This document shows, one piece after another, positions 1,057 through 62,882 of a stretch of DNA of 64,000 nt. The notes beneath the pieces are model-generated. The model searched no databases. It saw only the letters and a program-made list of their open reading frames with translations, and was not told the origin of the DNA. Every line of letters starts with the position of its first letter. The first letter of the stretch is position 1. Where the stretch lies: assembly GCF_028368995.1 (NCBI RefSeq), contig NZ_JAQNDL010000003.1, positions 2,969,752 to 3,033,751 on the forward strand. Reading direction: 5' to 3'. The translations under genes were made by a program, and so were the position numbers. Source of the stretch: Nannocystis bainbridge. Its GTDB lineage: Bacteria > Myxococcota_A > Polyangia > Nannocystales > Nannocystaceae.

Positions 1057-1399
1057 GAACGAGATTCTCCTGTTTCAGCGGTCGTGATCGATGGTCCACG
1101 CGTGCGGCCTCGCCGAGAACGTCCTGCCGCGCGCGGCCCGGCCCGCCCATCGGAGCGCGCCGGAGCGCGCCGGAGTCGTAACGAAAGACCCACGCCGGGC
1201 ACGGTCCCCGATCGGCCGGCAACGTTACAAACCACGGCACCGAAGTCGCGACCTCGGTCGACGACGAGCGCGAGCGCGCTCGAGTCCGTCTCTGCATGAG
1301 GACGACTCGAGGCTCGCGTCACCGGCTCATGTCACCCGCTTCGCGCGTCGCCGCTCCCTTGCGCGACGCGAATCATTGCTGTCCCTTGGGACATGACCT

Positions 1400-1657
1400 T
1401 CAGACCAGCCGCGGCATCCGCTCCAGCGCCGCCTGGCGCTCGAGCAGCACCGCCGTCAGCACCGCCCGCACCGCCGGCGCGTCGAGCCCGCGCAGGTGGC
1501 CGAGCAGGTGGTCCATGTGGATCTGGAACCCGCAGCGCGTCACCTCGACCGGCGTCAGCGGGCACTGCATCTCGCCGCGGTGGAGCAGCGCCAAAAACCG
1601 CTTGAGGTCCTCGGTGGGCACACGGACGAGCGCGTTCTGCAGCATCGCCGGGGGCAT
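1400..1657 (-). CDS. Small hypothetical protein
   Basis: Coding-like composition and GC3 bias (LKRFLALLHRGEMQCPLTPVEV...). Confidence 0.6.
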   Translation of the reverse strand: MPPAMLQNALVRVPTEDLKRFLALLHRGEMQCPLTPVEVTRCGFQIHMDHLLGHLRGLDAPAVRAVLTAVLLERQAALERMPRLV

Positions 1658-1820
1658 AGCCCCTCGCCCGCCTGCGGGCAAGCGCGGGCGCCTCGCGCGT
1701 CGCGCTCGCCCGGGCCCGCCGACGCCCTCGCGCGCCGCACGGGCCGCGCTCGCTCACGAAGCCGGCGACGTGCTCACCGGCATCCGACCTCGCCACGACG
1801 GTCCGTCGCGCCCGGCCGCC

Positions 1821-2306
1821 TCAGCCTTCCGGCGGCGGGTCCGGCAGGCGGAACGACCTTATGAAATCTTCGCCCGCGCTGTGACAGCCGACGCACACGT
1901 CGGGTCGGCCGGAGAAGCGCGGCTGGTCGCTCGAGCCGTCGTACTGCTCCCACGCCCACACGCCGGCCTGCTTCTGCATCACCGCGACCTGGACCAGCGA
2001 CCCGCCCTCGGCCGCGTCGTAGCCGGCCAGGACCACCATCGCGTCCTCGGACCAGGCCAGCAGCCCCTCGGGCAGCACCATCGCCAGGTCGGCGACCACC
2101 ACGTCGTTGATGTAGATGTCGACGAACCCGCCGTGCGGCGCGACCACCGGCTGGCGCTTCTCACGGTTCTTCGGCCGGGCCCACATCGTGTAATCGCCGG
2201 CCTCGGCCAGCAGCGTCGGCGCCTCGGACACCGGCTGCAGCGGCTCCTCGCAGCCCGCGGGCAGGGCCCCGAGGGCGACGGCGGCGATCGCGGCGCGGCG
2301 GCGCAT
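1821..2306 (-). CDS. Cytochrome P460/c'-beta family c-type heme lipoprotein
   Basis: Lipobox-like LPAGC; VAVMQK...WAWEQY followed by a C-terminal CVGCH heme motif. Confidence 0.65.
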   Translation of the reverse strand: MRRRAAIAAVALGALPAGCEEPLQPVSEAPTLLAEAGDYTMWARPKNREKRQPVVAPHGGFVDIYINDVVVADLAMVLPEGLLAWSEDAMVVLAGYDAAEGGSLVQVAVMQKQAGVWAWEQYDGSSDQPRFSGRPDVCVGCHSAGEDFIRSFRLPDPPPEG

Positions 2307-2355
2307 CGACATCGTCGACACCATAACACCCTTTGCGGCTACGATCCGCGCCCCC

Positions 2356-3684
2356 GTGCCGAGAAACCCCATCACCGCCCGCGCCCTGGCCGTTCAGACC
2401 CTCCGGCAGATCGATCAACGCCGCGGCTTCAGCAACCGGATCCTGGCCGAGCAGTTCGAGCGTCACCCGGACCTCGAGCGGCGCGAGCGCGGCCTCACCA
2501 CCAACCTCGTGTACGGCGTGCTGCGCCACCGCGGCCGCCTCGACGCGCTGATCGACGCCGTCGCCGTGCGCCCGAAGAACCTCAGCGCCCGCGCGCGAGA
2601 GATCGCCCGCGTCGCCGTGTTCGAGCTGCGCGAGCTGCAGCACCCGCCGCACGCCGCGATCTCGCAGGCCCTCGGCCTCGCCACCGCGCTCGACCCGAGC
2701 GGCGGCCTGGCCCGCCCGCTGCACGCCATCCTCTCCGCCATCGACCGCGAAGGCGCCGCCGCCGACGCCCGCCTCGCCGCCGGCAAGCCGCTCGACGTGC
2801 TCGCCGATCGCTGGTCGATCCCCCGCTGGCTCGCGGGCCGCTGGATCGCCAACCTCGGCCCCGACCTCGCCCTCGCCCGCGCCCGCGCCCTCGCCGAGCC
2901 GCCCGCCGTCGAGCTGCGCGTCGACCTGTCCCGAACGACAGCCGACGACGTCGCCGCGGCCCTGCGCGAGGCCGAGCCGAAGGCCCTCGTCGAGCCGATC
3001 GCCGACCAGCCGCAGGCCCTGCGGGTGCGCAGCGGCGGCGAGCTGGTCCGCCACCCGCTGCACGAGCGCGGCCTGTTCTCGGTCCAGGCCCTCGGGGCGC
3101 AGCGCGCCGCCCTGACTCTTGCGCCATGTCCTGAAGAACATGTCCTGGACGCCTGCGCCGGCATGGGCACCAAGTCGCTGCAGCTGGCCGAGCTGATGGG
3201 CCGCCGCGGCCGTCTGGTCGCCGCCGACGCCAGCGAGCTCCGGCTCGGCGAGCACGCCGCCCTGCGCCGCCGCGGCGGGCTCGACGTCGAGGGCCTCGAA
3301 TTCACCTCGGTGATCGCCGACCTCGCCGCCGATGAGCCGCAGCCCGGCGTCGACGACTCGACCTACGACGCCGTCCTGCTCGACGCCCCCTGCACCGGCC
3401 TCGGCAACCTGGCCCGCCACCCCGAGCTGCGCGGCACCGTGCAGTTCGCGGACATCGCCGTCTGCGCCGCCCTCCAGCGCCGCCTGCTCGACCGCAGCCG
3501 CGCCCGCGTGCGCCCCGGCGGCCGCCTGGTCTACGCCGTCTGCAGCCTCGAGCCCGAGGAGGGCCCGCGCCTGGTCCGCGCCGCGTGCGACGCCGGCAGC
3601 TTCACGCTCGAGCACGAGGAGACCTGGACGCCCGAGGCCCACCAGACCGACGGCTTCTACCTGGCCCGCCTGCGCCCGAGCTGA
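2356..3684 (+). CDS. rsmB: 16S rRNA m5C967 methyltransferase (NusB-like domain plus Fmu domain)
   Basis: LVYGVLR NusB-like N-terminus; VLDACAGMGTK, LLDAPCTG and LVYAVCS motifs; DGFYLARL end. Confidence 0.9.
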   Translation: MPRNPITARALAVQTLRQIDQRRGFSNRILAEQFERHPDLERRERGLTTNLVYGVLRHRGRLDALIDAVAVRPKNLSARAREIARVAVFELRELQHPPHAAISQALGLATALDPSGGLARPLHAILSAIDREGAAADARLAAGKPLDVLADRWSIPRWLAGRWIANLGPDLALARARALAEPPAVELRVDLSRTTADDVAAALREAEPKALVEPIADQPQALRVRSGGELVRHPLHERGLFSVQALGAQRAALTLAPCPEEHVLDACAGMGTKSLQLAELMGRRGRLVAADASELRLGEHAALRRRGGLDVEGLEFTSVIADLAADEPQPGVDDSTYDAVLLDAPCTGLGNLARHPELRGTVQFADIAVCAALQRRLLDRSRARVRPGGRLVYAVCSLEPEEGPRLVRAACDAGSFTLEHEETWTPEAHQTDGFYLARLRPS

Positions 3685-3757
3685 GCCTTATCCTCAGGAC
3701 ATGTTCTAAAAGGCATGTCCTGAAGGTCAGACGGCGCGTACCCTCACGCCTCCAGCA

Positions 3758-3950: not shown

Positions 3951-4011
3951 CCGGGCCGGTGCGCCGGGGCCCGCTCGCACGTTCGCGCCAGTGGCGCGCT
4001 TCTGTGCCGGA

Positions 4012-4068
4012 CATGGCCCCGAGAGCATGCCCTTCGAGACATGCCCTTCGGAACATGTTCGAACGAAC
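4012..4068. repeat. 14-bp palindromic unit array (TGYYC-N4-GRRCA)
   Basis: CATG junctions at 4012, 4026, 4040 and 4054; a second pair at 3700/3714. Confidence 0.9.
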
Positions 4069-4173
4069 ACTCAAGTTTCGCTCACGGCTGCGCTCCGGCT
4101 CGCTCCGCCGCGCCTGCGTCGAGGTCATCCTTCGCCTCGACGCGCATCGAGTTTTTTCAAGAGCGGCTCGCTG

Positions 4174-4779: not shown

Positions 4780-5107
4780 CAAGGACCTCGGTCGACCTCG
4801 CAGTCGTAGCATAGTTCCGCCGCCGACGTCCTCTGCGCGTCGCGGCGCCCCCTCCGCCGCGCCACCGTATCCCGCCGGTCCGCCGCGCGCCGCCGCTCTC
4901 ACATGTCCCGAAGGACATACGCCTGCACGCGCGCATGTCTCTCGGGACATCCGCGCCGCAGGCCCGTGCAGCGGCCGACGCACCCGCCTCGCGCGAACCT
5001 GGCGCTTGTGGTCTCGCTGCCAATCGTGATAGCTTGGGCTCCGATCGACGTGGGTCGATCACCGCGTCCCTCGCTGTGGACGTCGCTCTTCGGAACTGGG
5101 GGTGATC

Positions 5108-7528: not shown

Positions 7529-8152
7529 ATGACCTCGAGAGCAGACATCGTCGCCCGCAGCGGTCGCAAGATCGCCGCCGCCCTGGCCGGCAGCCTCGTC
7601 CTCCTGCTCGGCAGCGGGTATCTGCTGTCCCGCGGTGAACCACCGCCGCAGCAGCTCCCCGCCGCCGGACCCGAGCTCGCGGTCGCGCTCGGCGTGCCGG
7701 CGGCCGACGCCGATTCGGCGCGCCGGCATTTCGACGATTTCGACCCGCGCCCCGACCACGTCGCCCTCGCGCCGCCGCCGATCGAACCTGTCCCCCGGGA
7801 CAGTTTGACTGAGGACCGTCAGGCCTGGCTCGCCAACCCGGGCCCGCAGGTCGTGATCGACGGCAGCGGGCAAGCCAAGCTCGAGGCCGCCCGTGCGGCC
7901 GCGACCGCCGAGCTGCAAAAAGCCCTCGACGGGCGGGCGCGGGGCCTCCTGCGCGCCTGTGGCGGCAAGAACCCCAATAACTTGTTCGTCCAGGCCACCT
8001 TCGGCGCCGACGGCAAGCTGCTCTCGCACGAGTTCGCCGGCCACGGCGACGACGCTGCCGTCCGCGATTGCCTCGCCGCCCAGCCGTTCGCCATGACGAT
8101 CGCGCCCCCCGGCGCCGAGATGCAGCTCCGCGGCGTGCTCGCCCCGCCCTGA
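7529..8152 (+). CDS. Membrane-anchored protein with possible TonB-C/AgmX-like C-terminal domain
   Basis: N-terminal TM helix, Pro-rich linker, C-terminal RAC...VQATFGADGK...RDCL. Confidence 0.55.
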   Translation: MTSRADIVARSGRKIAAALAGSLVLLLGSGYLLSRGEPPPQQLPAAGPELAVALGVPAADADSARRHFDDFDPRPDHVALAPPPIEPVPRDSLTEDRQAWLANPGPQVVIDGSGQAKLEAARAAATAELQKALDGRARGLLRACGGKNPNNLFVQATFGADGKLLSHEFAGHGDDAAVRDCLAAQPFAMTIAPPGAEMQLRGVLAPP

Positions 8153-11339: not shown

Positions 11340-11535
11340 CGACCGAAGGGACATGTCCTTAATTTCAGAACATGTCCCTTCAGACACCCGCCGGCGCTCT
11401 CGATAACATGTCCCTTCGGACAGACAGAAGCGCGCCCTCTCTGACAAGAGAGAGCTTGGCAGGGCCCCTCGGGGCGGACGATCGCGCCGGCGCTTTCGAA
11501 AACATGTCCCTTCGGACATCTCGAAAGGGACCTCT
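11340..11535. repeat. Cluster of 14-bp palindromic units between convergent genes
   Basis: CATG junctions at 11352, 11371, 11407 and 11503, with 14-bp-phased partners at 11385, 11421, 11517 and 11531. Confidence 0.85.
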
Positions 11536-16825: not shown

Positions 16826-17848
16826 ATGGCCATCGTTTTCGCCTTCACCGTCGCCGCCCTCGTGTTCGCAGCGCCTGCCGCGCCCGGACCTACGCGCACT
16901 GCGACGACGGTCGCGCCCGCCTCCCCGGGTGCGCCGCCGGCCGCGAAGAACCTGTCCTCAGGGACAGCCAACACCACCGCCGAGCTGCGCGTCGACTGGC
17001 GCGACCGCGTCGCCATCGGCGTCGCTTCCATGCAGAGCGCCGACCCGGCGCGGCTCGCCCGACTCGAGCAGCTCCAGCCCGACCGCAAGGTCGAGGACGC
17101 CGTGTTCTTCTCCCCGGGAGAGCTGCAGGACCCGCGCGTCGCACCTGTCCTTTTGCGCAGGTTGCTTCAGAGCACCGACCCCGTGAAGGTCCGCTGCGCC
17201 ATCGTCGAGGCCCTGCCGCTGACCGGCGGGGATTGGCAGGAGGGCGCCGCCGCGTTGGTCGCTCTCGACGCCTCGCCGCAGGTGCGCAAGCAGTTGGTCC
17301 AGGTCATGCGCTACGCCGGCGCGCCCTTCAACCTCGACGGCCTGCGCCGCGGCTTCAAGGACGAGGACGGCGAGGTCAACATCGCCGCCGCCCGCACCGC
17401 CGGGTTCGCGCGCAACGGCGAGGAGCTGTTCCCCGAGCTCTACTCGAGCACCTTCGACAGCGACTGGGACCTGCGCGCCGCCGCCGTGCAGGCGCTCGGC
17501 ATGTTGCGCTTGCCCAAGTCGCGCGACGTCCTGATCAAGGCGCTCGGCGACGACGAGCGCGAGGTCCGGCTGCAGGCCTTCCTCGCCCTCGAGCAGATCG
17601 ATCCCGAGGGCATCATCTGGCTGCCCGAGCTCGAGTCCCTGGCCAAGGATCGCAAGAGCCACCGGATCGCCCGCAAGGCCGAGCTCATGCTGCGCAAGCG
17701 CAAGGCCGCCGAAAAGGCCGCCAAAAAGGCCGGGCGCCCGATCACCGGCGCGCGGCCGACCGCGCCCGAGCCGAGCCCGCCCGCCCGGGGTGGTGGTGGC
17801 TCGGCGAGCGGCGCGATCAAGCTCGACCCCTCCGCGACCCAGCCATGA
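16826..17848 (+). CDS. Exported HEAT-repeat protein
   Basis: Signal peptide followed by repeated D..VR..A..AL units. Confidence 0.8.
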   Translation: MAIVFAFTVAALVFAAPAAPGPTRTATTVAPASPGAPPAAKNLSSGTANTTAELRVDWRDRVAIGVASMQSADPARLARLEQLQPDRKVEDAVFFSPGELQDPRVAPVLLRRLLQSTDPVKVRCAIVEALPLTGGDWQEGAAALVALDASPQVRKQLVQVMRYAGAPFNLDGLRRGFKDEDGEVNIAAARTAGFARNGEELFPELYSSTFDSDWDLRAAAVQALGMLRLPKSRDVLIKALGDDEREVRLQAFLALEQIDPEGIIWLPELESLAKDRKSHRIARKAELMLRKRKAAEKAAKKAGRPITGARPTAPEPSPPARGGGGSASGAIKLDPSATQP

Positions 17849-18976: not shown

Positions 18977-19822
18977 ATGCCCATCCCGACGGTAGAACAG
19001 CTCGGTCCGCGCTTCGCCGAGTTTCTCCGCGGACTCAAGCGGCCGCTCATCTTCTTCGACACCGAGACCACGGGCACCGACCCGGCGCTCGATCGCGTCG
19101 TCGAGATCTCGATGATCCGCATCAGCGCCGAGCGCGGGGTCGAGCCGCCGCGCACCTGGCGGATCAACCCCGGTGTGCGGATCCCGATCGAGGCCAGCGA
19201 GATCCACGGCATCACCAACGAAGACGTCGCCGACAAGCCGACTTTCGGCCAGATCGCCGACGAGCTGCAGAGCTACCTCCGCGGCTGCGACCTCGCCGGC
19301 TTCAACATCGGCCGCTTCGACGTCCGCGTGATGCACACCGAGTTCGCCCGCGTCGGCAAGGCCTTCGACATGTCGGGCGTGCGCGTCATCGACGCCCAGG
19401 TCATCTATCACCAGAAGGAGCCCCGCAACCTCACCGCGGCGATGCGCTTCTACTGCGAGAAAGAGTTCGTCGACGCCCACGGCGCCGAGGCCGACACGAT
19501 CGCCACGCTCGAGGTGTTCGCCGGCCAGCTCGAGCGCTACGGCGAGCTCGGGCTCGAGATCGAGGCGCTGCACGAGGTCTCCAACATCACCAGCGCCGGC
19601 TTCGTCGACAGCGCGCGCCGCTTCATCTGGCGCGACAACGAGCCCGTGTTCAACTTCGGCCGCCTCAAGGGCAAGTCGCTGCGCTGGGCCGCCAGCGAGC
19701 CGAACGAGCGCGCCTACATGCGCTCGATCGTCACCGGCAACTTCGACGAGGACACCAAGGGCATCGTCCGCGACGCCCTGACCGGCCGGATCCGCGTGCG
19801 CCCGCGCGAGACCGAGGGCTAG
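18977..19822 (+). CDS. DEDDh 3'-5' exonuclease (DnaQ-like)
   Basis: FFDTETTG, GFN...FD and HGAEAD motifs. Confidence 0.9.
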   Translation: MPIPTVEQLGPRFAEFLRGLKRPLIFFDTETTGTDPALDRVVEISMIRISAERGVEPPRTWRINPGVRIPIEASEIHGITNEDVADKPTFGQIADELQSYLRGCDLAGFNIGRFDVRVMHTEFARVGKAFDMSGVRVIDAQVIYHQKEPRNLTAAMRFYCEKEFVDAHGAEADTIATLEVFAGQLERYGELGLEIEALHEVSNITSAGFVDSARRFIWRDNEPVFNFGRLKGKSLRWAASEPNERAYMRSIVTGNFDEDTKGIVRDALTGRIRVRPRETEG

Positions 19823-19880
19823 CCGCAAGGACATGTTCCGGGGGGCATGTCGCTTCGGACATGTCCCTCGAAACATCCAC
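19820..19880. repeat. 14-bp palindromic unit array filling a convergent intergenic gap
   Basis: CATG at 19832, 19846 and 19860; CATC at 19874. Confidence 0.9.
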
Positions 19881-24966: not shown

Positions 24967-25048
24967 CTGCTTCAAAGACATGCCCTCCAGGACATGTCCT
25001 TTCAAGCATTGCCTTCAGGACATGTCCCAAAGGGCATGTCCAGAAAAT
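24967..25048. repeat. 14-bp palindromic unit array between convergent genes
   Basis: Junctions at 24979, 24993, 25007, 25021 and 25035. Confidence 0.92.
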
Positions 25049-26464: not shown

Positions 26465-26543
26465 CTCTCTCGGGACAGGCCTTGCGAGCGCACGAGCCTG
26501 TCCTTCGGGACAGGCATGACCACCTGTCCCGAGAGCCACCTGC

Positions 26544-33660: not shown

Positions 33661-33766
33661 TCGTTTTCGCCTTCAAGGACATGTCGCTCGGGACATGTCC
33701 TTCGAGACATTTTCCATGGCTGGCCCACGGGTGGCGCGAGGTCGCGCGAGCTGGTAGCGTGCGTGC

Positions 33767-37245: not shown

Positions 37246-37328
37246 TGTTCTTTAGAGCATGTCCCCGGGCACATGCTCTTTCGAGCATGCGCGAAGGGGC
37301 ATGCCCTTTCGAGCATGTCCCTTCGGCA
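37246..37328. repeat. 14-bp palindromic unit array between convergent genes
   Basis: CATG at 37258, 37272, 37286, 37300 and 37314. Confidence 0.93.
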
Positions 37329-37336
37329 CGCCGCGC

Positions 37337-39754
37337 TCAGCCGTGATCGATCGGCCCCGGCGCGACGCCGCGGGCGCGGCTCGGCAGGGTCAGCGGCACG
37401 TAGGGCAGGCGCTGGGCCGGGGTGAACTCGGCCGGCGCGTGCAGCCAGCGGTAGCTGAGCCAGCGCTCGAGCACCGACTGGGTGTAGGCGCGGGTCTCGT
37501 CGTAGGGGATGGCCTCGATGAAGAGGTCGAAGTCCCAGTCCTTGCGCTTCTCGAGCCACTTGTCGACCGCGCCGGCGCCCGCGTTGTAGCTGGGGATCGC
37601 CAGCGGCACCGCGGCCTCGTCGCCGCCGTAGCGACGGACCAGGTTGCCGAGGTAGAGCGTGCCGAGGTCGAGGTTGAGCGACGGGTCGTGGAGGCGGGCG
37701 TCGTTGAAGCTCTCGACGCCGGCCTGGCGCGCGAGGTCCTTCGCGGTCGCCGGCATCAGCTGCACGAGGCCGCGCGCGCCGGCCCACGACGTCACGCCCG
37801 GCTCGAACCGGCTCTCGGTCTGCATGATGGCGAAGGTGAGGAACCACGGGACCTGGTGGGCGCCCTCGCCGGCGCGCACGAGGTCGGAGAACGCCAGCGG
37901 GTGGGCGATCGTCCACAGCTCGCGGTTGGCGACCCCGGGCGGGCTCTGGCGCCAGCTGCTGCCGAGCGCGCCGAGCAGCCGCTGCGATTCGCCGTAGAGC
38001 CCGGCCTGGGCCAGCACCGCGGCCGCGGGCCAGCCGTCGATCTTGGCCTCGCTGAGCTCCTCGCGGGCCTCGTCGCCGAGGCCGAGGCGGGCCAGCAGCA
38101 GCGCGCGCTCGGCCGCGGGCGTGGCCGGCAGGTCGAGGCGCGGGGCGGACTGATCGGCCGCCTTCGAGAGCGCCGCGATCCCGCGCGCGAGCGGCTCGTC
38201 GCCAGCCTCGCGCAGGCGCGACATAGCCTGAAGGCCAGGATAGCTGAGCGGCGCGGTGGCGACGACGTCGAGCCAGGCGGTCACGGCATCGTCGGCGCGG
38301 CCGAGCCGGTGCAGGCCGCGGCCGCGGAAGTAGTGCAGCTTGGCGCGGTCGCGCAGGTCGAGGCCCTTGCCGGCGAGGCCGTCGTCGGCCAGCTTGAGCG
38401 CGTCGGCCGGGCGGTCCTGCGTCAGCGCCAGCACCAGCAGCCGGCGCCGCGCCTCGAACGCCATGTCGCCGCCGGCGAACTCGCCCAGCATGCGCTCGTA
38501 GGCCTGCCGCTCGCGCGGCTTGTCGCTCTTCTCGGCCCACGACTCGCCGGCCAGCAGCAGCGAGTCGTCGGCGTAGCTGTGGTCAGGGAACTCGTCGGCG
38601 ACCGCGGTGAACTGCTTGGCCGCGCGCTCGTACTCGCCCTCGGCGTAGCGGCCGCGACCGGCCTGGTAGAGGGCCTTGACGAGGGTGTCCTTGCGGACAG
38701 GCCCGGCCTTGCGGCAGGCCATCGCCGCCGACTCGAACACCGGGCGCGACTTGGCCCGCTTGCGCTGCTTGAAGATCGCCGTGCCCTTGAGGAACAGCGC
38801 CTCGCAGCGGTCGGCCTCGGGCGGCTGCAGCGCGAGGAACTCGTCGACGTCGCGCAGGACCGCGGCGTAGCGGCTGCGCGCCAGTTGATCGCGGATCTTC
38901 GCCAGCTGGCGCTGACGCATGGCGTCGCGGTCCTCGGTGAAGCTGCGCCGCAGTCCGACCTTCTGCGCCAGCGCCGGCAGCCGCTCCTCGGCCTCGCTGC
39001 CGTAGTCGGACAGCGGCACGTCGAGCAGCAATTTTTCGTAGAGCTCGATCGCCTCGCGCAGCTCCTCGGGCGCCTCGCCTTCGGCCAGCAGCCGGGCCCG
39101 CTTGGCCCGCACCTCGTGCCGCCGCGGCGACTCGGGGAACTTGGCCAGGAAGCCGGCGTACTGCGCCAGCGCGCCGGCGCGGTCGCCGGTGCGCGCCTTG
39201 GCGTCGGCGCCGGTGATCGTCGCGGCCGGCTCGATCGCGGTGCCGGCCGCGGCTTCGACCAGGCCGGCGAGCGGCGCCACGGCCTTGTCGGGCATGCCGG
39301 CGTCCAGCCACGCCTGGGACTCGAGCAGGCGCAGGCGCGGGGCGACCGCGGACAGCCCGGGCGCCGTGCGGGCCTCGGCCAGCCGCCTGGCGCCCTCGGC
39401 GTACTTCTGCGCCCGCAGGTCCTCGAGCGCGCGCAGCCACAGCGCCGCCCCGCGGTCGTCGGCCGCGAGCGCGCCGTCCTGCAGCACCTCGTCGAGCAGC
39501 TTGACCGCGGCGGGGAAGTTCTGCCGCTCGCGCGCGAGGATGGCGTCGCGCCCGGGCCCGCTGGAGAACCACAGCTTGCGCTCGGGCTCGGCGACCGTCG
39601 GCGGGTCCTTCTTGGCGTCCTTGTCGGGCTCGCTGTCTTGCCGGCCGAGGTCGCCGGTGAACAGCGGCGGGGTGGACTCGCCGCGACATGCCCCAAAGGA
39701 CAGGCTCATCAGGACGAGCAGGGCGACCGGGCCGCGATTCGAAAGGCGTTGCAT
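37337..39754 (-). CDS. TPR-containing soluble lytic transglycosylase (Slt-type) lipoprotein
   Basis: FGAC lipobox; TPRs; AIMQTESRF, GARGLVQLMPATA, SYNAG and IPYDETRAY motifs. Confidence 0.92.
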   Translation of the reverse strand: MQRLSNRGPVALLVLMSLSFGACRGESTPPLFTGDLGRQDSEPDKDAKKDPPTVAEPERKLWFSSGPGRDAILARERQNFPAAVKLLDEVLQDGALAADDRGAALWLRALEDLRAQKYAEGARRLAEARTAPGLSAVAPRLRLLESQAWLDAGMPDKAVAPLAGLVEAAAGTAIEPAATITGADAKARTGDRAGALAQYAGFLAKFPESPRRHEVRAKRARLLAEGEAPEELREAIELYEKLLLDVPLSDYGSEAEERLPALAQKVGLRRSFTEDRDAMRQRQLAKIRDQLARSRYAAVLRDVDEFLALQPPEADRCEALFLKGTAIFKQRKRAKSRPVFESAAMACRKAGPVRKDTLVKALYQAGRGRYAEGEYERAAKQFTAVADEFPDHSYADDSLLLAGESWAEKSDKPRERQAYERMLGEFAGGDMAFEARRRLLVLALTQDRPADALKLADDGLAGKGLDLRDRAKLHYFRGRGLHRLGRADDAVTAWLDVVATAPLSYPGLQAMSRLREAGDEPLARGIAALSKAADQSAPRLDLPATPAAERALLLARLGLGDEAREELSEAKIDGWPAAAVLAQAGLYGESQRLLGALGSSWRQSPPGVANRELWTIAHPLAFSDLVRAGEGAHQVPWFLTFAIMQTESRFEPGVTSWAGARGLVQLMPATAKDLARQAGVESFNDARLHDPSLNLDLGTLYLGNLVRRYGGDEAAVPLAIPSYNAGAGAVDKWLEKRKDWDFDLFIEAIPYDETRAYTQSVLERWLSYRWLHAPAEFTPAQRLPYVPLTLPSRARGVAPGPIDHG

Positions 39755-42348: not shown

Positions 42349-42587
42349 CATGTCCTTTAAAACATGTTTTAAAGGGCATGGTCCAAAAGCCCTGCGCATG
42401 AGGACACGTCGAGCCGCGCCGGAGGGCCCAGGGCAGGAACAGCCTGACGAACTCGATTCACTCGAGCCCGAGCGACCCACACGAGCACCACCACGTTTAC
42501 GCATGTCCCTCGGAACATGCCCCTCAGGACATGCTCTTTGAAGCATGTCCCCCGGAGCATGCCCCTCAGGACATGCTCTTTGAGCAG
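42349..42587. repeat. Two 14-bp palindromic unit arrays
   Basis: Junctions at 42349, 42363, 42377 and 42391; and at 42502, 42516, 42530, 42544, 42558 and 42572. Confidence 0.95.
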
Positions 42588-43848: not shown

Positions 43849-43900
43849 GATCGGATGTCTCTTCGCGCAGGTCCTTCGGGACAGGAACCTACGGACAGGC

Positions 43901-44638: not shown

Positions 44639-44737
44639 GGTTGAGGAGGCACCGCGAGGCGGGCCGGGTGGCCGGCGCCGACCCCGTCGCGCGGGGCCGG
44701 TCGAACCGGTTCTTTGGGACATGTCCTTCGACACAGG

Positions 44738-49743: not shown

Positions 49744-49754
49744 GGAGCCAGTCC

Positions 49755-50986: not shown

Positions 50987-51068
50987 TGTACGAAGGGACA
51001 TGCCCAAACGGGCATGTCCCTTTTTCCATGCGCGAAAGGGCATGTCCTTGTGGACATGCCCCTTCGTT
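50987..51068. repeat. 14-bp palindromic unit array between convergent genes
   Basis: CATG at 50999, 51013, 51027, 51041 and 51055. Confidence 0.93.
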
Positions 51069-51074
51069 CAGGCT

Positions 51075-53654: not shown

Positions 53655-53740
53655 TGTCTTTTACGGCATGTCCCTCGGGACCTGTCCCGACGCGCATGCT
53701 CTCACGGACATGCCCTCACGGACATGTCCTCGCGGACCTC
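53655..53740. repeat. 14-bp palindromic unit array between convergent genes
   Basis: Junctions at 53667, 53681, 53695, 53709, 53723 and 53737. Confidence 0.92.
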
Positions 53741-57960: not shown

Positions 57961-59602
57961 ATGGAGCCCGCAGCGGGTCAAGATCCGTACCTCAATCACT
58001 GGGCCGACGCGGCCGCCGCCAAGACTCTTGCCGCGCACGCGGACGCCAAGGTCGTCACCGTCGCCGCCGGCATCACGCCTTCGGGCGTCGTCCACGTCGG
58101 CAACTTCCGCGAGGTCATCACCGTCGACCTCGTCGCTCGGGCCCTGCGCGACCGCGGCGCCGACGTCCGCTTCATCTACTCGTGGGACGACTTCGACGTC
58201 CTGCGCAAGGTCCCGGCCGACATGCCGCAGCGCGACATGTTGAACGACAACCTGCGCCGCAGCATCAGCGCCGTGCCCGACCCCTACGGTGAGCACGACA
58301 GCTACGCCGGGCACAACATCGCCGCCTTCGAGAAGAGCCTCGCCCCGCTCGGCATCCAGCCCGAGTTCATCCGTCAGTCGCAGCGCTACCGCGCCGGCGC
58401 CTACGCCGAGGGCATCCGCCTCGCCCTCAAGCACGCCGCCGACATCCGCGCCGTCCTCAACAGCGTGCGCGACAAGACCACCGCCAACACCCGCCTCGAG
58501 GACGGCTGGCTGCCGCTGTCCGGCTTCTGCGACAACTGCGGCCGCGACACCCTCGCCTTCGCCGTCCAGGACGAGTGGACCGTTCATTACGACTGCAGCG
58601 CGTGCAAGCACGCCGCCGACGTCGACCTGCGCCAGGGCGGCAACCTCAAGCTCCCGTGGCGCATCGACTGGCCGATGCGCTGGGCCCACGAGCGCGTCTG
58701 CTTCGAGCCCGGCGGCAAGGACCACAGCACCGCCGGCGGCAGCTTCGACACCGCCAAGGACATCGTCCGCGTCGTCTACGGCTGGCAGGCCCCCGAGTAC
58801 GTCGGCTACGACTTCGTGCGGATCAAGGGCCGCGCCGGCAAGATCTCGAGCAGCAAGGGCGACGTCGTCACCGTCTCCGACTGCCTCGAGATCTACGAGC
58901 CCGAGGTCCTGCGCTGGATGTTCGTCTCGTTCCGCCCCAACACCGAGTTCCAGATCAGCTTCGACCTCGACGTCATCACCCTCTACGAGAACTTCGACCG
59001 CACGCGCCGGATCGCCTACGGCGTCGAGCCGGCCAAGGACGCCCAGGCGCGCCTCGTCGCCCAGCGCACCATGCAGCTGGCCAGCGTCGACCACCGCCGG
59101 ATCGGCGAGGGCGACGTCCTGCCGTTCGTGCCCGGCTTCCGCCACCTCAGCATGACGCTGCAGATCTTCGAGGGCGACCTCGACAAGACCGTCGCCTACT
59201 ACGCCGAGGCGGGCCAGATCAACGGCGACGAGTCGCGCCGCCTGACCCGCCAGCGCGCCCGCTGCGTGTGGAACTGGATCGCCGAGTGGGGCCCCGACGA
59301 GTTCCGCTACCAGCTGCGCCGCGAGCCTAAGCTGCGCGAGCTGTCCGCCGACGAGGCCACCTGCCTCGCCCGCCTGCTCGCCCCGCTGCGCGGCCGCGAA
59401 GAGATCCGCGAGGACGAGTTGGTCCCGACCATGAAGACGCTGTGCGAGGGCACCGGCCTCGACAACAAGACCTTCCTCCCGGTCGTCTACGACCTGCTCA
59501 TCGGCCGCGACAAGGGCCCCAAGCTGACCACGCTGATCACCGCGATCGGGACCGGCCCGCGCCCTGTCCCTGCTCGCGCCGAGCCTGCCCGCCGGGACAT
59601 GA
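57961..59602 (+). CDS. lysK: Class I lysyl-tRNA synthetase (3' end shifted by a probable sequence error near 59548)
   Basis: GITPSGVVHVGNFRE, KLPWRIDWPMRW, EPGGKDH, KISSSKG and GPKL motifs. Confidence 0.92.
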
Positions 59603-59745
59603 CCACCAAGTGGCATGGTCCTTCGGACATGCTCCGAAGGACCTGTCCTCTCGAACACGATGGGCAGCAAGCACAGCCCTGGTGCGAACGGCCCTGCTAC
59701 CGACGCCCACGCCCGGTCGCAGGAGCCTCGCAGTGCGCTCATCCC

Positions 59746-60429
59746 TCACGCGGGCCACGCCGCGAGCACCGCCGCCCTCGATTCGCGCGCTAGCCTACCA
59801 CGCAGCGCGTGGCGTCCTCCGCCCCGAGCCCGCAGGAATCCCACGCCACGTGGTCGACGTACGGCTCCTCCGCCGCGATCGCCAGCGGGCACGCCAGCTC
59901 CGCGCCACCAGCTCCGGCATCACCTCGCCGCGCCTCCTTTAAAAGGCTTTGAGCCGCTTCTCGCGCTCGGCCACGCAAAGCGTCAGCGTCTCGATCGCCG
60001 CCGCCAGCACCGCGCGCACGTTCCTCGCGCGAGCCCTGGCACCCGCGCAGCCGCACCTGCCGGTACCACGCCAGCAGCGCGTAGCAGCTGGCGCGAATGT
60101 AGCGGACCTGCCGTGCGCGCCCTGTGGTTCGGCCGCGTCGAGTTGGTCGGTGCGCGTAGGCGATGTCGACCGCGCGCGGGCGGCTGCCACCATCAACCTG
60201 TCCTCGGGACATCCTTGCGCACCACCTGGCCCGCGCCCGTCACCGCGCCGAAGCCGACCTCGCGCGGCCCGACCATCCCGCCCGCGCCGCCGAGGAAGAT
60301 CCGTCGCTCGCGCAGCAGCACCCCGCGGGGCACGTCGCCGACCAGCGACGCCGTCGCCTTGTCCCCGCGCGCCCCCCACGGCGTGAAGTTGAAGTGGATG
60401 AACCCGCTGCCGACCTCGGAGGACTTCGC
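59746..60429 (-). pseudogene. 3' half of GlmU-related hexapeptide/pyrophosphorylase-like gene (indel-rich copy)
   Basis: Mirror of 60430-61102 with many indels; truncated at the fold. Confidence 0.55.
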
Positions 60430-61102
60430 GCGAAGATCACTCCGAGGTCGGCAGCGGGTTCATCCACTTCAACTTCACGCCGTGGGGGCGCGCGGGGACA
60501 AGGCGACGGCGTCGCTGGTCGGCGACGTGCCCCGCGGGGTGCTGCTGCGCGAGCGACGGATCTTCCTCGGCGGCGCGGGCGGGATGGTCGGGCCGCGCGA
60601 GGTCGGCTTCGGCGCGGTGACGGGCGCGGGCCAGGTGGTGCGCAAGGATGTCCCGGAGGACAGGTTGATGGTGCAGCCGCCGCGCGCGGTCGACATCGCC
60701 TACGCGCCCGACCAACTCGACGCGGCCGAACCACGGGCGCGCCGGCAGGTCCGCTACATCGCCCAGCTGCACGCGCTGCTGGCGTGGTACCGGCAGGTGC
60801 GGCTGGCGCGGGTGCCAGGCTCGCGCGAGGACGTGCGCGCGGTGCTGGCGGCGGCGATCGAGACGCTGACGCTTTGCGTGGCCGAGCGCGAGAAGCGGCT
60901 CAAAGCCTTTTTAAAGGAGCGCGGCGAGGTGATGCCGGAGCTGGTGGCGCCGGAGCTGGCGTGCCCGCTGGCGATCGCGGCGGAGGAGCCGTACGTCGAC
61001 CACGTGGCGTGGGTCCGCGGGCTCGGGGCGGAGGACGCCACGCGCTGCGTGGAGTGGCTGCGCGCGATCGAGGCGGCGGTGCTCGCGGCGTGGCCCGCGT
61101 GA
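60430..61102 (+). pseudogene. 3' half of GlmU-related hexapeptide/pyrophosphorylase-like gene (cleaner copy)
   Basis: REDHSEVGSGFIHFNFTPW/GARGDKATASLVGDVPRGV...IFLGG.GG.VGP; no start codon; one G-run frameshift near 60485. Confidence 0.6.
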
Positions 61103-61241
61103 GGGATGAGCGCCTGCGAGGCTCCTGCGACCGGGCGTGGGCGTCGGTAGCAGGGCCGTTCGCACCAGGGCTGTGCTTGCTGCCCTCGTGTTCGAGAGGA
61201 CAGGTCCTTCGGAGCATGTCCGAAGGACCATGCCCTTGGGG

Positions 61242-62882
61242 TCATGTCCCGGCGGGCAGGCTCGGCGCGAGCAGGGACAGGGCGCGGGCCGGTCCGATCG
61301 CGGTGATCAGCGTGGTCAGCTTGGGGCCCTTGTCGCGGCCGATGAGCAGGTCGTAGACGACCGGGAGGAAGGTCTTGTTGTCGAGGCCGGTGCCCTCGCA
61401 CAGCGTCTTCATGGTCGGGACCAACTCGTCCTCGCGGATCTCTTCGCGGCCGCGCAGCGGGGCGAGCAGGCGGGCGAGGCAGGTGGCCTCGTCGGCGGAC
61501 AGCTCGCGCAGCTTAGGCTCGCGGCGCAGCTGGTAGCGGAACTCGTCGGGGCCCCACTCGGCGATCCAGTTCCACACGCAGCGGGCGCGCTGGCGGGTCA
61601 GGCGGCGCGACTCGTCGCCGTTGATCTGGCCCGCCTCGGCGTAGTAGGCGACGGTCTTGTCGAGGTCGCCCTCGAAGATCTGCAGCGTCATGCTGAGGTG
61701 GCGGAAGCCGGGCACGAACGGCAGGACGTCGCCCTCGCCGATCCGGCGGTGGTCGACGCTGGCCAGCTGCATGGTGCGCTGGGCGACGAGGCGCGCCTGG
61801 GCGTCCTTGGCCGGCTCGACGCCGTAGGCGATCCGGCGCGTGCGGTCGAAGTTCTCGTAGAGGGTGATGACGTCGAGGTCGAAGCTGATCTGGAACTCGG
61901 TGTTGGGGCGGAACGAGACGAACATCCAGCGCAGGACCTCGGGCTCGTAGATCTCGAGGCAGTCGGAGACGGTGACGACGTCGCCCTTGCTGCTCGAGAT
62001 CTTGCCGGCGCGGCCCTTGATCCGCACGAAGTCGTAGCCGACGTACTCGGGGGCCTGCCAGCCGTAGACGACGCGGACGATGTCCTTGGCGGTGTCGAAG
62101 CTGCCGCCGGCGGTGCTGTGGTCCTTGCCGCCGGGCTCGAAGCAGACGCGCTCGTGGGCCCAGCGCATCGGCCAGTCGATGCGCCACGGGAGCTTGAGGT
62201 TGCCGCCCTGGCGCAGGTCGACGTCGGCGGCGTGCTTGCACGCGCTGCAGTCGTAATGAACGGTCCACTCGTCCTGGACGGCGAAGGCGAGGGTGTCGCG
62301 GCCGCAGTTGTCGCAGAAGCCGGACAGCGGCAGCCAGCCGTCCTCGAGGCGGGTGTTGGCGGTGGTCTTGTCGCGCACGCTGTTGAGGACGGCGCGGATG
62401 TCGGCGGCGTGCTTGAGGGCGAGGCGGATGCCCTCGGCGTAGGCGCCGGCGCGGTAGCGCTGCGACTGACGGATGAACTCGGGCTGGATGCCGAGCGGGG
62501 CGAGGCTCTTCTCGAAGGCGGCGATGTTGTGCCCGGCGTAGCTGTCGTGCTCACCGTAGGGGTCGGGCACGGCGCTGATGCTGCGGCGCAGGTTGTCGTT
62601 CAACATGTCGCGCTGCGGCATGTCGGCCGGGACCTTGCGCAGGACGTCGAAGTCGTCCCACGAGTAGATGAAGCGGACGTCGGCGCCGCGGTCGCGCAGG
62701 GCCCGAGCGACGAGGTCGACGGTGATGACCTCGCGGAAGTTGCCGACGTGGACGACGCCCGAAGGCGTGATGCCGGCGGCGACGGTGACGACCTTGGCGT
62801 CCGCGTGCGCGGCAAGAGTCTTGGCGGCGGCCGCGTCGGCCCAGTGATTGAGGTACGGATCTTGACCCGCTGCGGGCTCCAT
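61242..62882 (-). CDS. lysK: Class I lysyl-tRNA synthetase, mirrored duplicate with intact frame
   Basis: Same sequence as 57961-59602. Confidence 0.85.
   Translation of the reverse strand: MEPAAGQDPYLNHWADAAAAKTLAAHADAKVVTVAAGITPSGVVHVGNFREVITVDLVARALRDRGADVRFIYSWDDFDVLRKVPADMPQRDMLNDNLRRSISAVPDPYGEHDSYAGHNIAAFEKSLAPLGIQPEFIRQSQRYRAGAYAEGIRLALKHAADIRAVLNSVRDKTTANTRLEDGWLPLSGFCDNCGRDTLAFAVQDEWTVHYDCSACKHAADVDLRQGGNLKLPWRIDWPMRWAHERVCFEPGGKDHSTAGGSFDTAKDIVRVVYGWQAPEYVGYDFVRIKGRAGKISSSKGDVVTVSDCLEIYEPEVLRWMFVSFRPNTEFQISFDLDVITLYENFDRTRRIAYGVEPAKDAQARLVAQRTMQLASVDHRRIGEGDVLPFVPGFRHLSMTLQIFEGDLDKTVAYYAEAGQINGDESRRLTRQRARCVWNWIAEWGPDEFRYQLRREPKLRELSADEATCLARLLAPLRGREEIREDELVPTMKTLCEGTGLDNKTFLPVVYDLLIGRDKGPKLTTLITAIGPARALSLLAPSLPAGT

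What the first reader, a model, noticed from the sequence alone, without database searches (positions are those of the whole stretch)
1378..61260. Pervasive 14-bp palindrome (TGYYC-N4-GRRCA) forming strictly phased head-to-tail arrays
Seen: a self-complementary 14-mer, ideal form TGTCC-NNNN-GGACA, abuts itself so that CATG-like junctions recur every 14 bp. Example from 42504: TGTCCCTCGGAACA|TGCCCCTCAGGACA|TGCTCTTTGAAGCA|TGTCCCCCGGAGCA|TGCCCCTCAGGACA. Arrays of 2-6 junctions start at 3700, 4012, 4902, 11352, 19832, 24979, 26497, 33680, 37258, 42349, 42502, 43854, 44706, 50999, 53667 and 59598/61187. Units differ freely in their centres while the ends and the spacing are kept, so this is not a recent slippage repeat. 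The long arrays occupy most convergent gene junctions in the window. Inference: these are binding arrays for an abundant dimeric DNA-binding protein (three units = 42 bp = four helical turns), or a REP/uptake-sequence-like family doubling as bidirectional 3'-end hairpins (7-bp stem, 4-nt loop). I do not recognise it as a described element.
Basis: partly seen in the sequence, partly recalled or inferred. Interest (0 to 1): 0.88.

Follow-up and report, generated by a model that had tools for sequence, protein, structure and literature searches.

The report
Genus-specific 14-bp palindrome arrays at gene ends
Nannocystis genomes carry thousands of copies of a short two-fold-symmetric DNA word, often stacked in exact 14-base register just after stop codons, which looks like the target of an unknown paired DNA-binding protein and fits no described repeat family.

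Summary
TGYYC-N4-GRRCA occurs 33 times in the window against 1.07 expected, and 3,785 times in the 11-Mb genome. CATG-to-CATG distances peak at 14, 28, 42, 56 and 70 bp on all five contigs.

**Placement.** Arrays of 2-6 units lie just after stop codons. They occupy 52-60% of convergent gaps of 60-500 bp and almost no short divergent gaps.

**Distribution.**
- 9 of 10 other same-genus genomes have the two-unit pattern.
- 0 of 30 other genera of the family or class have it, and 0 of 400 other Myxococcota genomes.
- No Y1/RAYT transposase was found in any of 11 genus genomes.

**Unexpected results.**
- The word is also 24-fold enriched inside genes, at the 4-bp spacing only.
- Its TG/CA ends are conserved at synonymous sites, while the centre changes faster than its flanks.
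- The two arms do not covary.

Together these point to a symmetric protein recognition site on duplex DNA rather than a selected hairpin. Arrays probably grew by 14-bp slippage in 3' non-coding DNA. A weak sense-strand G·U bias leaves a secondary RNA role open.

I found no description in the papers searched, and the scan had not noted it before. The binding factor and the function are unknown.

The parts
1380..1393 (.). single strict unit
   Evidence: kept in 4 relatives, each with a different centre
3127..3140 (.). single strict unit inside the RsmB-like gene (2356-3684 +)
   Evidence: identical in 4 of 4 relatives
3702..3729 (.). 2-unit array, convergent gap 3684/4174
4000..4069 (.). array of 4 units plus one degenerate unit, same convergent gap
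   Evidence: TRF period 14
4904..4917 (.). single strict unit
7789..7802 (.). single strict unit inside a predicted gene (7529-8152 +)
   Evidence: core kept in 4 of 4 relatives, centre changed
11340..11518 (.). loose cluster of units (strict at 11409 and 11505; degenerate at 11340, 11373 and 11395), convergent gap 11337/11559
16953..16966 (.). single strict unit inside the HEAT-repeat gene
19820..19875 (.). array of 3 units plus one degenerate unit, convergent gap 19822/19883
24981..25036 (.). 4 phased units (the third degenerate), convergent gap 24894/25061
26499..26512 (.). single strict unit, convergent gap 26464/26544
33682..33709 (.). 2-unit array 22 nt after the stop of the MMPL gene (31174-33660 +)
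33898..33925 (.). 2-unit array near the start of the predicted M28 peptidase gene
35215..35242 (.). 2-unit array inside a predicted CDS; relatives show indels here, so the gene call is doubtful
37246..37315 (.). 5-unit array, convergent gap 37206/37337
38686..38699 (.). single strict unit inside the SLT transglycosylase gene; 4 relatives read GGCCA in the right arm
39689..39702 (.). single strict unit inside the SLT gene, near its start
42351..42378 (.). 2-unit array that is itself a 28-nt near-palindrome
42504..42586 (.). 5-unit array plus a 13-nt broken unit, 20 nt after the stop (42607) of the ATP-grasp gene on the minus strand
   Evidence: All 9 genus loci carry units at this place, in different number and with different centres. 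None of 6 sister-genus loci does.
43856..43883 (.). degenerate doublet between two minus-strand genes
44708..44735 (.). degenerate doublet just after the stop (44738) of a minus-strand gene
50987..51070 (.). two doublets plus flanking degenerate units, convergent gap 50972/51075
   Evidence: TRF period 28
53655..53738 (.). 6 phased units (the first degenerate), convergent gap 53576/53741
59586..59657 (.). one unit plus a 3-unit array at the end of the class-I LysRS gene
60649..60662 (.). single strict unit inside the diverged centre of the terminal inverted duplication
61189..61258 (.). mirror copy of the 59586-59657 units (inverted duplication at the contig end)

Best explanation
The unit is a two-fold-symmetric DNA word, (A/C)TGYYC-N4-GRRCA(T/G). 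It is read on duplex DNA by a symmetric, probably dimeric, sequence-specific protein found only in this genus. Each half-site is constrained on its own and the 4-bp spacer length is fixed. Single sites are kept throughout the genome, including inside genes, where they cost rare codons. In the unconstrained DNA just after stop codons, sites were multiplied by 14-bp slippage into phased arrays of 2-6 units. Each array offers a row of abutting sites, and three units span 42 bp, about four helical turns. My favoured function is gene-end punctuation at the DNA level, comparable to E. coli BIMEs that hold gyrase or IHF. Because the word is self-complementary, the transcribed arrays also fold into very stable 3' RNA structures, which may add a smaller effect on the transcript.

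Shown: the enrichment, phase, placement, conservation pattern, lack of covariation and genus restriction. Inferred: the protein, its dimeric nature and the function.
For: **Enrichment**
- Window: 33 units against 1.07 expected.
- Genome: 3,785 units with 14-bp CATG periodicity.
- It is the single dominant 5-Nn-5 palindrome in the genome, 229 observed against 1.6 expected in the two contigs scanned (C4 and C5).

**Fixed spacing and presence in genes**
- Inside predicted CDS: 1,237 units against 56.4±6.9 in 20 codon-order shuffles.
- N4 is enriched 24.1-fold. The nine other spacers from 0 to 9 bp give 0.6-2.8-fold.
- Units are spread evenly along genes, in the frames that cost least.

**Half-sites independent**
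- In 265 units chosen without regard to their own sequence, Watson-Crick pairs observed against expected are 107 vs 103.8 (pair 3-12), 141 vs 132.7 (4-11) and 155 vs 155.2 (5-10). C-A (55) is as common as T-G (48).
- Mutual information for pairs 3-12 and 4-11 in CDS units is 0.001-0.009 bits.

**Sequence-specific constraint** (907 kb aligned to genome G010)

| Site class | Background | TG/CA | YYC/GRR | Positions 7/8 |
|---|---|---|---|---|
| Third codon positions | 0.847 | 0.973 (182/187) | 0.897 | 0.66 (62/94) |
| Intergenic | 0.85 | 0.949 | 0.816 | 0.607 |

- Of 98 aligned CDS units, 63 stay strict, 27 keep 9 of 10 bases, 3 are lost and 5 have gaps.

**Placement**
- Arrays occupy 52-60% of convergent gaps of 60-500 bp and 0-5% of divergent gaps under 300 bp.
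- In same-strand gaps of 150 bp or more, array counts fall across deciles from 192 next to the upstream stop to 23 next to the next start.
- Array starts peak 5-20 nt after the stop.

**Position kept, sequence fluid**
- All 9 genus loci downstream of one ATP-grasp gene carry units, from 1 to 5-6 per locus, with different centres.

**Genus restriction**
- 9 of 10 other genus genomes have the two-unit pattern; 0 of 30 other genera; 0 of 400 other Myxococcota.
- No comparable word in 100 kb from each of 4 sister genera.

**Background from a paper**
- Passages of PMC6379681: gyrase cuts with a 4-bp stagger, its sites are over-represented in BIME-2 elements, and it is drawn downstream of transcribed loci.
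Against: - No candidate protein was found, and nothing here shows binding.
- Among strict intergenic units there is a modest excess of paired combinations (3-12: 1,767 vs 1,539.8; 4-11: 1,987 vs 1,830.5).
- Units in same-strand gaps show T-G 613 against C-A 420 on the sense strand. Background strand skew there is only 1.02-1.03. A purely duplex-DNA site does not predict this.
- Arrays of 3 or more units fold 2.6 kcal/mol better on the sense strand (82 vs 70 arrays, p=0.0075).
- Abutting 14-bp sites may be too close for many helix-turn-helix dimers.
- The 3'-end placement could reflect tolerance rather than function.
- Gene calls come from my own crude caller. Five of 98 aligned 'CDS' units show indels in the relative, so some calls are wrong.
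- The conservation test uses one species pair.
Confidence: 0.45

Rival explanations
1. RNA-level element. The arrays are transcribed and fold into stacked or long hairpins that end or protect the 3' end of mRNAs, working in both directions at convergent genes. The shared sequence reflects common descent or an RNA-binding factor.
For: - Array starts peak 5-20 nt after stop codons and their numbers decline away from the stop.
- Sense-strand G·U bias is 613 vs 420 with no matching background skew.
- Arrays of 3 or more units are more stable on the sense strand. The array at 42500-42590 folds at -60.6 kcal/mol on the sense strand against -41.6 on the other.
- Ordinary hairpin-plus-T-run terminators are at chance level in 19 kb (6 found, 6.9 expected). 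The tmRNA terminator (12-pair stem plus T-run) is the one clear case.
Against: - The arms do not covary, and C-A mismatches are as frequent as T-G in unbiased units.
- Singles and doublets show no sense/antisense stability difference (283 vs 271; 87 vs 86).
- Loop sequences are strand-symmetric: CGAA 64 and TTCG 59, CTTC 57 and GAAG 47.
- Only 44 of 1,000 arrays have 5 or more T in 8 nt downstream, against 59 upstream.
- The 24-fold enrichment and synonymous-site conservation inside genes have no place in a 3'-end role.
- The strict 4-nt spacer is more than a generic hairpin needs.
Confidence: 0.2
2. Self-propagating word with no role in the cell's own gene expression. A sequence-biased process, such as preferential DNA uptake (as for DUS/USS) or biased repair or methylation (as proposed for cyanobacterial HIP1), drives the word to high frequency wherever it is tolerated. 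Arrays are neutral slippage products in permissive 3' DNA.
For: - Intragenic copies sit in the least costly frames (619, 497 and 121 by frame) and are evenly spread along genes.
- Deserts of 30-74 kb occur, several with lower GC, as expected for recently acquired DNA.
- The distribution is limited to one genus.
- Slippage is visible. Adjacent centres are more often identical than random pairs, and two metagenome loci show a long run of identical units.
- HIP1 is a precedent for a hyper-abundant, selected palindrome of unknown function (PMC5861425 and PMC4390886; search listing and abstract starts only).
Against: - Spacing is clustered (CV 1.48), not even.
- No C5 DNA methylase was found in the window's genome, and only 3 of 10 other genus genomes have one.
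- The D12 adenine methylase is not genus-specific: 9 of 10 genus genomes and 21 of 24 family genomes have it.
- Array numbers decline steadily from the stop codon in long same-strand gaps, which is more than promoter avoidance predicts.
- Known uptake sequences are not palindromes (recalled).
Confidence: 0.2
3. Classical REP/REPIN family moved by a RAYT (Y1 HUH transposase).
For: It is a palindromic, abundant, lineage-specific repeat concentrated at gene 3' ends.
Against: - PF01797 has no match in any of 11 genus genomes, one of them a single contig, while the same search hits 6 of 14 control genomes.
- A third of the units are inside genes, where a 14-bp insertion would break the frame.
- Units are 14 bp and head-to-tail, not 20-40-bp inverted doublets.
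Confidence: 0.03

Closest known systems
REP / BIME elements of enterobacteria and pseudomonads
   Same: Short, lineage-specific palindromic units in thousands of copies, clustered after genes and between convergent genes. BIME-2 elements are gyrase targets in vivo (PMC6379681, passages). REPs are also known as RNA 3' stabilisers (recalled).
   Different: The unit is 14 bp, not about 35. Units are self-symmetric and abut head-to-tail in exact phase instead of alternating in orientation. There is no RAYT. A third of the copies are intragenic and conserved there. The arms do not covary.
HIP1 (GCGATCGC), the highly iterated palindrome of cyanobacteria
   Same: A palindromic word enriched by an order of magnitude or more in both coding and non-coding DNA, apparently under selection, with unknown function (PMC5861425 abstract start: 15- to 300-fold). 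Here the enrichment is 24-fold in CDS and 75-fold in intergenic DNA.
   Different: HIP1 is an uninterrupted 8-mer linked to orphan methylases. This word is an interrupted 5-4-5 palindrome with a free, fast-changing centre. It forms phased tandem arrays at gene ends and is limited to one genus of Myxococcota.
DNA uptake sequences (Neisseria DUS, Pasteurellaceae USS)
   Same: Lineage-specific words found in genes and, as inverted pairs, in terminator positions (recalled).
   Different: Uptake sequences are not palindromic words and are evenly spaced (recalled). Here the spacing is clustered, and competence of Nannocystis is unknown to me.
Tandem operator arrays for cooperative dimers (E. coli met boxes bound by MetJ) and 5-N4-5 sites of FNR-type regulators
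   Same: Palindromic boxes repeated head-to-tail in strict register, one dimer per box. The 14-bp 5-4-5 geometry matches. Both points are recalled, not tested.
   Different: Those are a few promoter sites per genome. Here there are thousands of sites at gene 3' ends and inside genes.
Intrinsic (Rho-independent) terminators
   Same: They sit shortly after stop codons and can form stable hairpins.
   Different: No U-tract, no covariation, and one shared sequence at all loci.

Membership tests
REP/BIME (RAYT-associated) | A cognate Y1 (HUH) transposase gene, RAYT, in the genome, usually flanked by the repeats | tested here: not met
   PF01797: 0 of 11 genus genomes. The same search hits 6 of 14 control genomes.
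REP/BIME (RAYT-associated) | Extragenic location | tested here: not met
   1,237 of 3,785 strict units lie inside predicted CDS, against 56.4 expected.
REP/BIME (RAYT-associated) | Imperfect palindromes of about 20-40 bp, clustered in alternating orientation | tested here: not met
   The units are 14 bp, self-symmetric, and sit head-to-tail at exactly 14 bp.
REP/BIME (RAYT-associated) | Concentration at 3' ends and between convergent genes | tested here: met
   52-60% of convergent gaps of 60-500 bp are occupied, and array counts decline away from the stop codon.
Intrinsic terminator | Stem followed by a U-tract | tested here: not met
   44 of 1,000 arrays in same-strand gaps have 5 or more T in 8 nt downstream, against 59 upstream.
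Structured RNA element (any) | Base pairs kept by compensatory change | tested here: not met
   Watson-Crick pairs observed vs expected: 107 vs 103.8, 141 vs 132.7 and 155 vs 155.2. No Rfam family other than tmRNA matches.
Structured RNA element (any) | Strand asymmetry favouring G·U on the transcribed strand | tested here: inconclusive
   T-G 613 vs C-A 420 against a background skew of 1.02-1.03. The folding-energy difference appears only for arrays of 3 or more units.
HIP-type highly iterated palindrome | Hyper-abundance in coding and non-coding DNA beyond codon usage, and conservation at orthologous sites | tested here: met
   24-fold enrichment in CDS. TG/CA identity is 0.973 against 0.847 at third codon positions.
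HIP-type highly iterated palindrome | A cognate orphan DNA methyltransferase | tested here: inconclusive
   The C5 methylase family is absent from the window's genome and present in 3 of 10 other genus genomes. A D12 methylase is present but shared with sister genera. Specificities cannot be tested with these tools.
DNA uptake sequence | Even spacing along the genome; non-palindromic word; competence machinery that reads it | tested here: not met
   The coefficient of variation of gaps is 1.48, with an excess of both short and very long gaps. The word is palindromic. A receptor was not tested.
Type IIA topoisomerase (gyrase) strong site | Cleavage with a 4-bp stagger at the dyad | not testable with these tools
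   Only the geometry fits (a 4-bp free centre). The background comes from PMC6379681.

The most novel reading that the evidence does not exclude
Nannocystis marks the ends of its transcription units with sequence-specified protein-DNA boundaries. A genus-specific symmetric protein coats phased 14-bp arrays placed after stop codons at more than half of convergent gene pairs. It could instead be a topoisomerase-like enzyme acting across the 4-bp centre, which would also explain why the dyad is hypervariable. In either form it would stop read-through or release transcription-driven supercoils. The same word scattered inside genes would serve as low-density sites for the same factor. That would be a protein-roadblock or topological punctuation system not described in bacteria.
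Probability: 0.12. Interest if true: 0.85.

Novelty: new variant of a known kind. Interest (0 to 1): 0.64.

Why it matters
Short interspersed palindromes such as REP, BIME, HIP1 and DUS are among the least understood features of bacterial genomes. This family is unusually clean to study:

- One word and one genus, with cultured, long-read-sequenced relatives available.
- A strict geometry of 5-4-5 bp and a 14-bp phase.
- Measurable purifying constraint on six outer bases, even at synonymous sites.
- A dyad that changes about twice as fast as its surroundings.

It separates sequence recognition from hairpin pairing more clearly than REPs do, because the arms do not covary and no transposase can account for the copies. 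It offers a direct route to an unknown abundant DNA-binding or DNA-acting factor, through pull-down, DAP-seq, methylome calls and Topo-seq. It also bears on how GC-rich bacteria that lack ordinary terminators mark the ends of genes. For annotation, the word marks native DNA as opposed to recently acquired DNA in these 11-13-Mb genomes.

Tried and rejected
**Known families and mobile elements**
- Rfam at gathering thresholds over the whole window returned only tmRNA.
- A RAYT search found nothing in the window's genome or in the genus.
- The two-unit pattern has 0 matches in 2.9 million viral contigs.

**Variant words in sister genera**
- No periodicity or comparable palindrome appeared in 100 kb from each of 4 sister genomes. 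One of them (G013) has a different word, CGCCT-N10-AGGCG, 18 times against 0.9 expected.

**Metagenome scan for three abutting units**
- The scan returned 47 loci.
- 31 share 71-91% DNA identity with this genome.
- 11 with GC below 0.66 are near-identical 14-bp minisatellites from unrelated DNA, that is, chance matches of recent slippage repeats.

**Explanations ruled out**
- Restriction avoidance does not explain the depleted GCATGC junction: outside arrays, GCATGC is at 1.02 of expectation.
- Background strand skew does not explain the sense-strand G·U bias.
- Inversion of the loop does not explain centre changes. By eye on the pairs printed, no changed centre was the reverse complement of the original. 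I made no formal count.

**Leads that went nowhere**
- I looked for a self-regulated binding-protein gene next to arrays in divergent gaps. Twenty-two arrays were listed and I did not pursue them, as the chance of success was low.
- RNA evidence: 24 runs were listed, all holding 0.10 or less of the sampled words, probably the tmRNA, and kept as contigs only. I laid no reads, so nothing about expression or 3' ends comes from them.

**Literature**
- Searches for Myxococcota or Nannocystis with 'repetitive extragenic palindromic', 'palindromic', 'intergenic'+'repeat' and 'repetitive'+'genome' found no description.
- The N. exedens genome announcement (PMC5658511, passages only) mentions only large repeats that prevented closure.
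- Subscription journals and REBASE were not searchable.

**Resemblances recalled and set aside**
- The junction GRRCATGYYC looks like a p53 half-site and contains the NspI site RCATGY.
- TGTCY recalls resolvase half-sites.
- None of these was tested, and I make no claim from them.

Full report
**1. Is it there?**

Yes. The strict pattern TGYYCNNNNGRRCA occurs 33 times in the 64-kb window. Dinucleotide-preserving shuffles gave a mean of 1.07, a maximum of 4, and none of 100 reached 33.

Every listed locus holds units. Some are singles (4904, 26499) and some are degenerate doublets (43856-43883, 44708-44735).

The loci '59598' and '61187' are one locus seen twice. They lie between the arms of a 100%-complementary inverted duplication (57063-59549 against 61294-63779). 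This duplication sits at the very end of contig C2, and four relatives have the region once.

**2. Genome-wide picture**

The window lies in an 11.05-Mb, 71% GC genome of 5 contigs.
- It holds 3,785 strict units.
- CATG-to-CATG distances peak at 14, 28, 42, 56 and 70 bp on all five contigs. On C1, lag 14 has 1,546 pairs, lag 13 has 25 and lag 15 has 113.
- The same half-sites at other spacings are 8-14 times rarer (N2 425, N3 447, N5 330, N6 266). Backward-read controls give 65-156.
- A blind scan of all 5-Nn-5 palindromes on the two contigs scanned (C4 and C5) puts TGTCC-N4-GGACA first, 229 observed against 1.6 expected. Nearly all of the other top entries are other registers of the same word.
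- I chained units of at least 9 of 10 specified bases, requiring at least one strict unit per chain. This gives 3,271 arrays: 2,264 singles, 545 doublets, then 215, 117, 92 and 34 arrays of 3 to 6 units, and only 4 longer.

**3. Where the units sit**

I had no annotation, so I wrote a codon-log-odds gene caller. It returned 8,105 genes covering 84% of the genome. Stop codons are reliable; start codons are approximate.

| Context | Arrays | DNA in that context |
|---|---|---|
| Convergent gaps | 904 | 294 kb |
| Same-strand gaps | 1,000 | 966 kb |
| Divergent gaps | 152 | 525 kb |
| Predicted CDS | 1,214, mostly singles | 9.26 Mb |

- 52-60% of convergent gaps of 60-500 bp hold an array, against 0-5% of divergent gaps under 300 bp.
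- In same-strand gaps of 150 bp or more, array counts fall across deciles from 192 next to the upstream stop to 23 next to the next start.
- Array starts peak 5-20 nt after the stop.
- In the window, 9 of 10 convergent junctions are occupied.
- Ordinary hairpin-plus-T-run terminators are at chance level in 19 kb (6 found, 6.9 expected). The tmRNA terminator at 41202-41228 (12-pair stem plus T-run) is the one clear case.

**4. The surprise: the word is also inside genes**

- Predicted CDS hold 1,237 strict units, against 56.4±6.9 in 20 codon-order shuffles. Intergenic DNA holds 2,499 against 33.3.
- Within CDS the enrichment is 24.1-fold at a 4-bp spacer. It is 0.6-2.8-fold at the nine other spacers from 0 to 9 bp.
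- Intragenic units are spread evenly along genes. They use the frames that need the fewest rare codons (619, 497 and 121 by frame).
- A 14-bp insertion would break a reading frame. These copies must therefore arise and persist by point mutation under some sequence-specific pressure.

**5. What is conserved, and what is not**

I took 265 units picked only because strict units flank them on both sides at 14 bp.

| Position | Composition |
|---|---|
| 1 | T 94% |
| 2 | G 96% |
| 3 | T 47%, C 41% |
| 4 | C 66%, T 26% |
| 5 | C 75% |
| 6-9 | near background |

The arms do not covary:

| Pair | Watson-Crick observed | Expected if independent |
|---|---|---|
| 3-12 | 107 | 103.8 |
| 4-11 | 141 | 132.7 |
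| 5-10 | 155 | 155.2 |

- At pair 3-12 the four combinations are CA 55, TA 53, CG 49 and TG 48.
- In CDS units the mutual information of pairs 3-12 and 4-11 is 0.001-0.009 bits. Strict intergenic units show a modest excess of paired combinations, 1,767 against 1,539.8 at pair 3-12.
- The flanks extend the word: position 0 is A 62% or C 32%, and position -1 is C 72%.
- Across junctions the symmetric forms are disfavoured. ACATGC and GCATGT total 561+473, while GCATGC has 207. GCATGC is not avoided elsewhere in the genome, where its ratio to expectation is 1.02.

**6. Evolution**

Relatives come from the same genus, and their orthologous loci carry Nannocystis titles.

*One orthologous locus.* All 9 genus loci I extracted downstream of one ATP-grasp gene carry units right after, or overlapping, the stop codon. 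The number of units differs (from 1 to 5-6) and so do the centres. None of 6 sister-genus loci has them.

*Alignment to G010.* I aligned 907 kb of genome G010 to this genome.

| Site class | Background | TG/CA | YYC/GRR | Positions 7/8 |
|---|---|---|---|---|
| Third codon positions | 0.847 (n=278,046) | 0.973 (182/187) | 0.897 (183/204) | 0.66 (62/94) |
| Intergenic | 0.85 | 0.949 | 0.816 | 0.607 |

*Against local flanks.*
- For 92 CDS singles, flank identity is 0.875 and positions 7/8 are 0.76 (p=9e-6).
- For 52 intergenic singles, flank identity is 0.812 and positions 7/8 are 0.66 (p=3e-4).

*Fate of units.*
- Of 98 aligned CDS units: 63 stay strict, 27 keep 9 of 10 bases, 3 are lost and 5 have gaps.
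- Of 74 intergenic units: 35 strict, 14 with 9 of 10, 10 lost, 13 with gaps and 2 partial.

The outer bases are under purifying constraint, and the dyad changes about twice as fast as its surroundings. This rests on one species pair and my own gene calls.

*Distribution.*
- The two-unit pattern occurs 207 times here and 61-118 times in the five large genus genomes. It occurs 0-6 times in the five smaller, mostly fragmented ones.
- It is absent from 30 genomes of other genera in the family and class.
- It is absent from 400 further Myxococcota genomes of 254 genera and from 2.9 million viral contigs.
- A metagenome scan for three abutting units gave 47 loci. Of these, 31 resemble this genome at 71-91% identity. 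Eleven low-GC loci are unrelated minisatellites of near-identical units.

**7. DNA or RNA?**

*Against a selected hairpin.*
- No covariation between the arms.
- Loops are strand-symmetric: CGAA 64 and TTCG 59, CTTC 57 and GAAG 47.
- No U-tract: 44 of 1,000 arrays downstream against 59 upstream.
- The spacer length is strict.
- The word is conserved inside genes.

*For some RNA-level effect.*
- In same-strand gaps the sense strand carries T-G 613 against C-A 420. The surrounding DNA has a combined skew of only 1.02-1.03.
- Arrays of 3 or more units fold 2.6 kcal/mol better on the sense strand (82 vs 70 arrays, p=0.0075). Singles (283 vs 271) and doublets (87 vs 86) do not differ.
- The array at 42500-42590 folds as one long hairpin of -60.6 kcal/mol on the sense strand, with the N4 centres as internal loops, against -41.6 on the other strand.

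My reading is that a duplex-DNA recognition word is the primary constraint, with a weaker transcript-level effect on long arrays.

**8. Comparison with known kinds**

- **REP/BIME.** The family shares abundance, lineage specificity and gene-end placement. It fails the defining features:
  - no Y1/RAYT transposase in 11 genus genomes, while the search hits 6 of 14 controls;
  - units of 14 bp;
  - head-to-tail phase;
  - a third of the copies intragenic.
- **HIP1.** It shares hyper-abundance in coding DNA and conservation (papers seen as search listing only). It is not an 8-mer and forms arrays. No conserved C5 methylase exists, and the D12 methylase is not genus-specific.
- **Uptake sequences.** These are non-palindromic and evenly spaced (recalled). 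Here the gap distribution has CV 1.48, with deserts of 30-74 kb.
- **Gyrase.** It cuts with a 4-bp stagger, is enriched in BIME-2 and is drawn downstream of transcribed loci (PMC6379681, passages). That makes a topoisomerase version attractive but untested.
- **Literature.** I found no description of this family in four searches. The N. exedens genome announcement does not mention it (PMC5658511, passages). The scan's own notes hold nothing on it.

**9. Verdict**

This is a real, genus-wide and apparently undescribed repeat family. I commit to this mechanism: a symmetric protein recognition word on duplex DNA, multiplied by slippage into phased arrays that punctuate gene ends (0.45).

Rivals:
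- an RNA 3'-end structure (0.2);
- a self-propagating word without host function (0.2);
- a RAYT-type REP (0.03).

The factor, the function and the cause of the fast-changing dyad are open.

Noticed in passing
window 57063-63779 (arms 57063-59549 and 61294-63779): There is an inverted duplication with 100%-complementary arms of 563 and 1,927 nt. It carries a class-I lysyl-tRNA synthetase gene twice, around a 1.7-kb centre that is itself a diverged palindrome. It sits at the very end of contig C2, and four relatives have the region once. It is probably a fold-back assembly artefact, though a real terminal palindrome is not excluded.
   Followed up: partly
window 29815-29995: A 26-bp unit is repeated in tandem 7 times at 94% identity. 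Each unit contains the palindrome GGTCC-GAA-GGACC, which looks like the family's inner bases at a 3-bp spacing. It lies between a minus-strand and a plus-strand gene.
   Followed up: no
window 40841-41228: A tmRNA gene (168 bits) is followed by the one clear hairpin-plus-T-run terminator found in 19 kb. Protein genes here seem to lack such terminators.
   Followed up: partly
window 5644-7497 and 8950-10293: Two paralogous genes carry long collagen-type Gly-X-Y repeats (Pfam Collagen, E=2.8e-45 and 4.2e-24). Threonine- and proline-rich tandem repeats lie upstream of them.
   Followed up: no
window 42607-50972: A cluster of four ATP-grasp genes is interleaved with esterase and S51 peptidase genes. 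It is conserved in synteny across the genus.
   Followed up: no
genome C1:1141516-1268210 and C5:420773-493833: These are stretches of 53-74 kb with almost no copy of the word and slightly lower GC (0.69). They may be very long biosynthetic genes or recently acquired DNA.
   Followed up: no
L047-L051 (G013, sister genus): A different interrupted palindrome, CGCCT-N10-AGGCG, occurs 18 times in 100 kb against 0.9 expected. It may be that genus's own repeat family.
   Followed up: no
junctions between units, genome-wide: At junctions the asymmetric forms ACATGC and GCATGT are favoured (561+473) and GCATGC is depleted (207 against about 276 expected). GCATGC is not avoided elsewhere in the genome. 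I have no explanation.
   Followed up: partly
L137 and L163 (metagenome contigs, GC 0.75-0.76): A run of at least eight identical units, CATGTCCTGCGGGG, lies next to an apparent stop codon. This looks like a recent slippage expansion, longer than almost all arrays in this genome (only 4 of 3,271 exceed 6 units).
   Followed up: no
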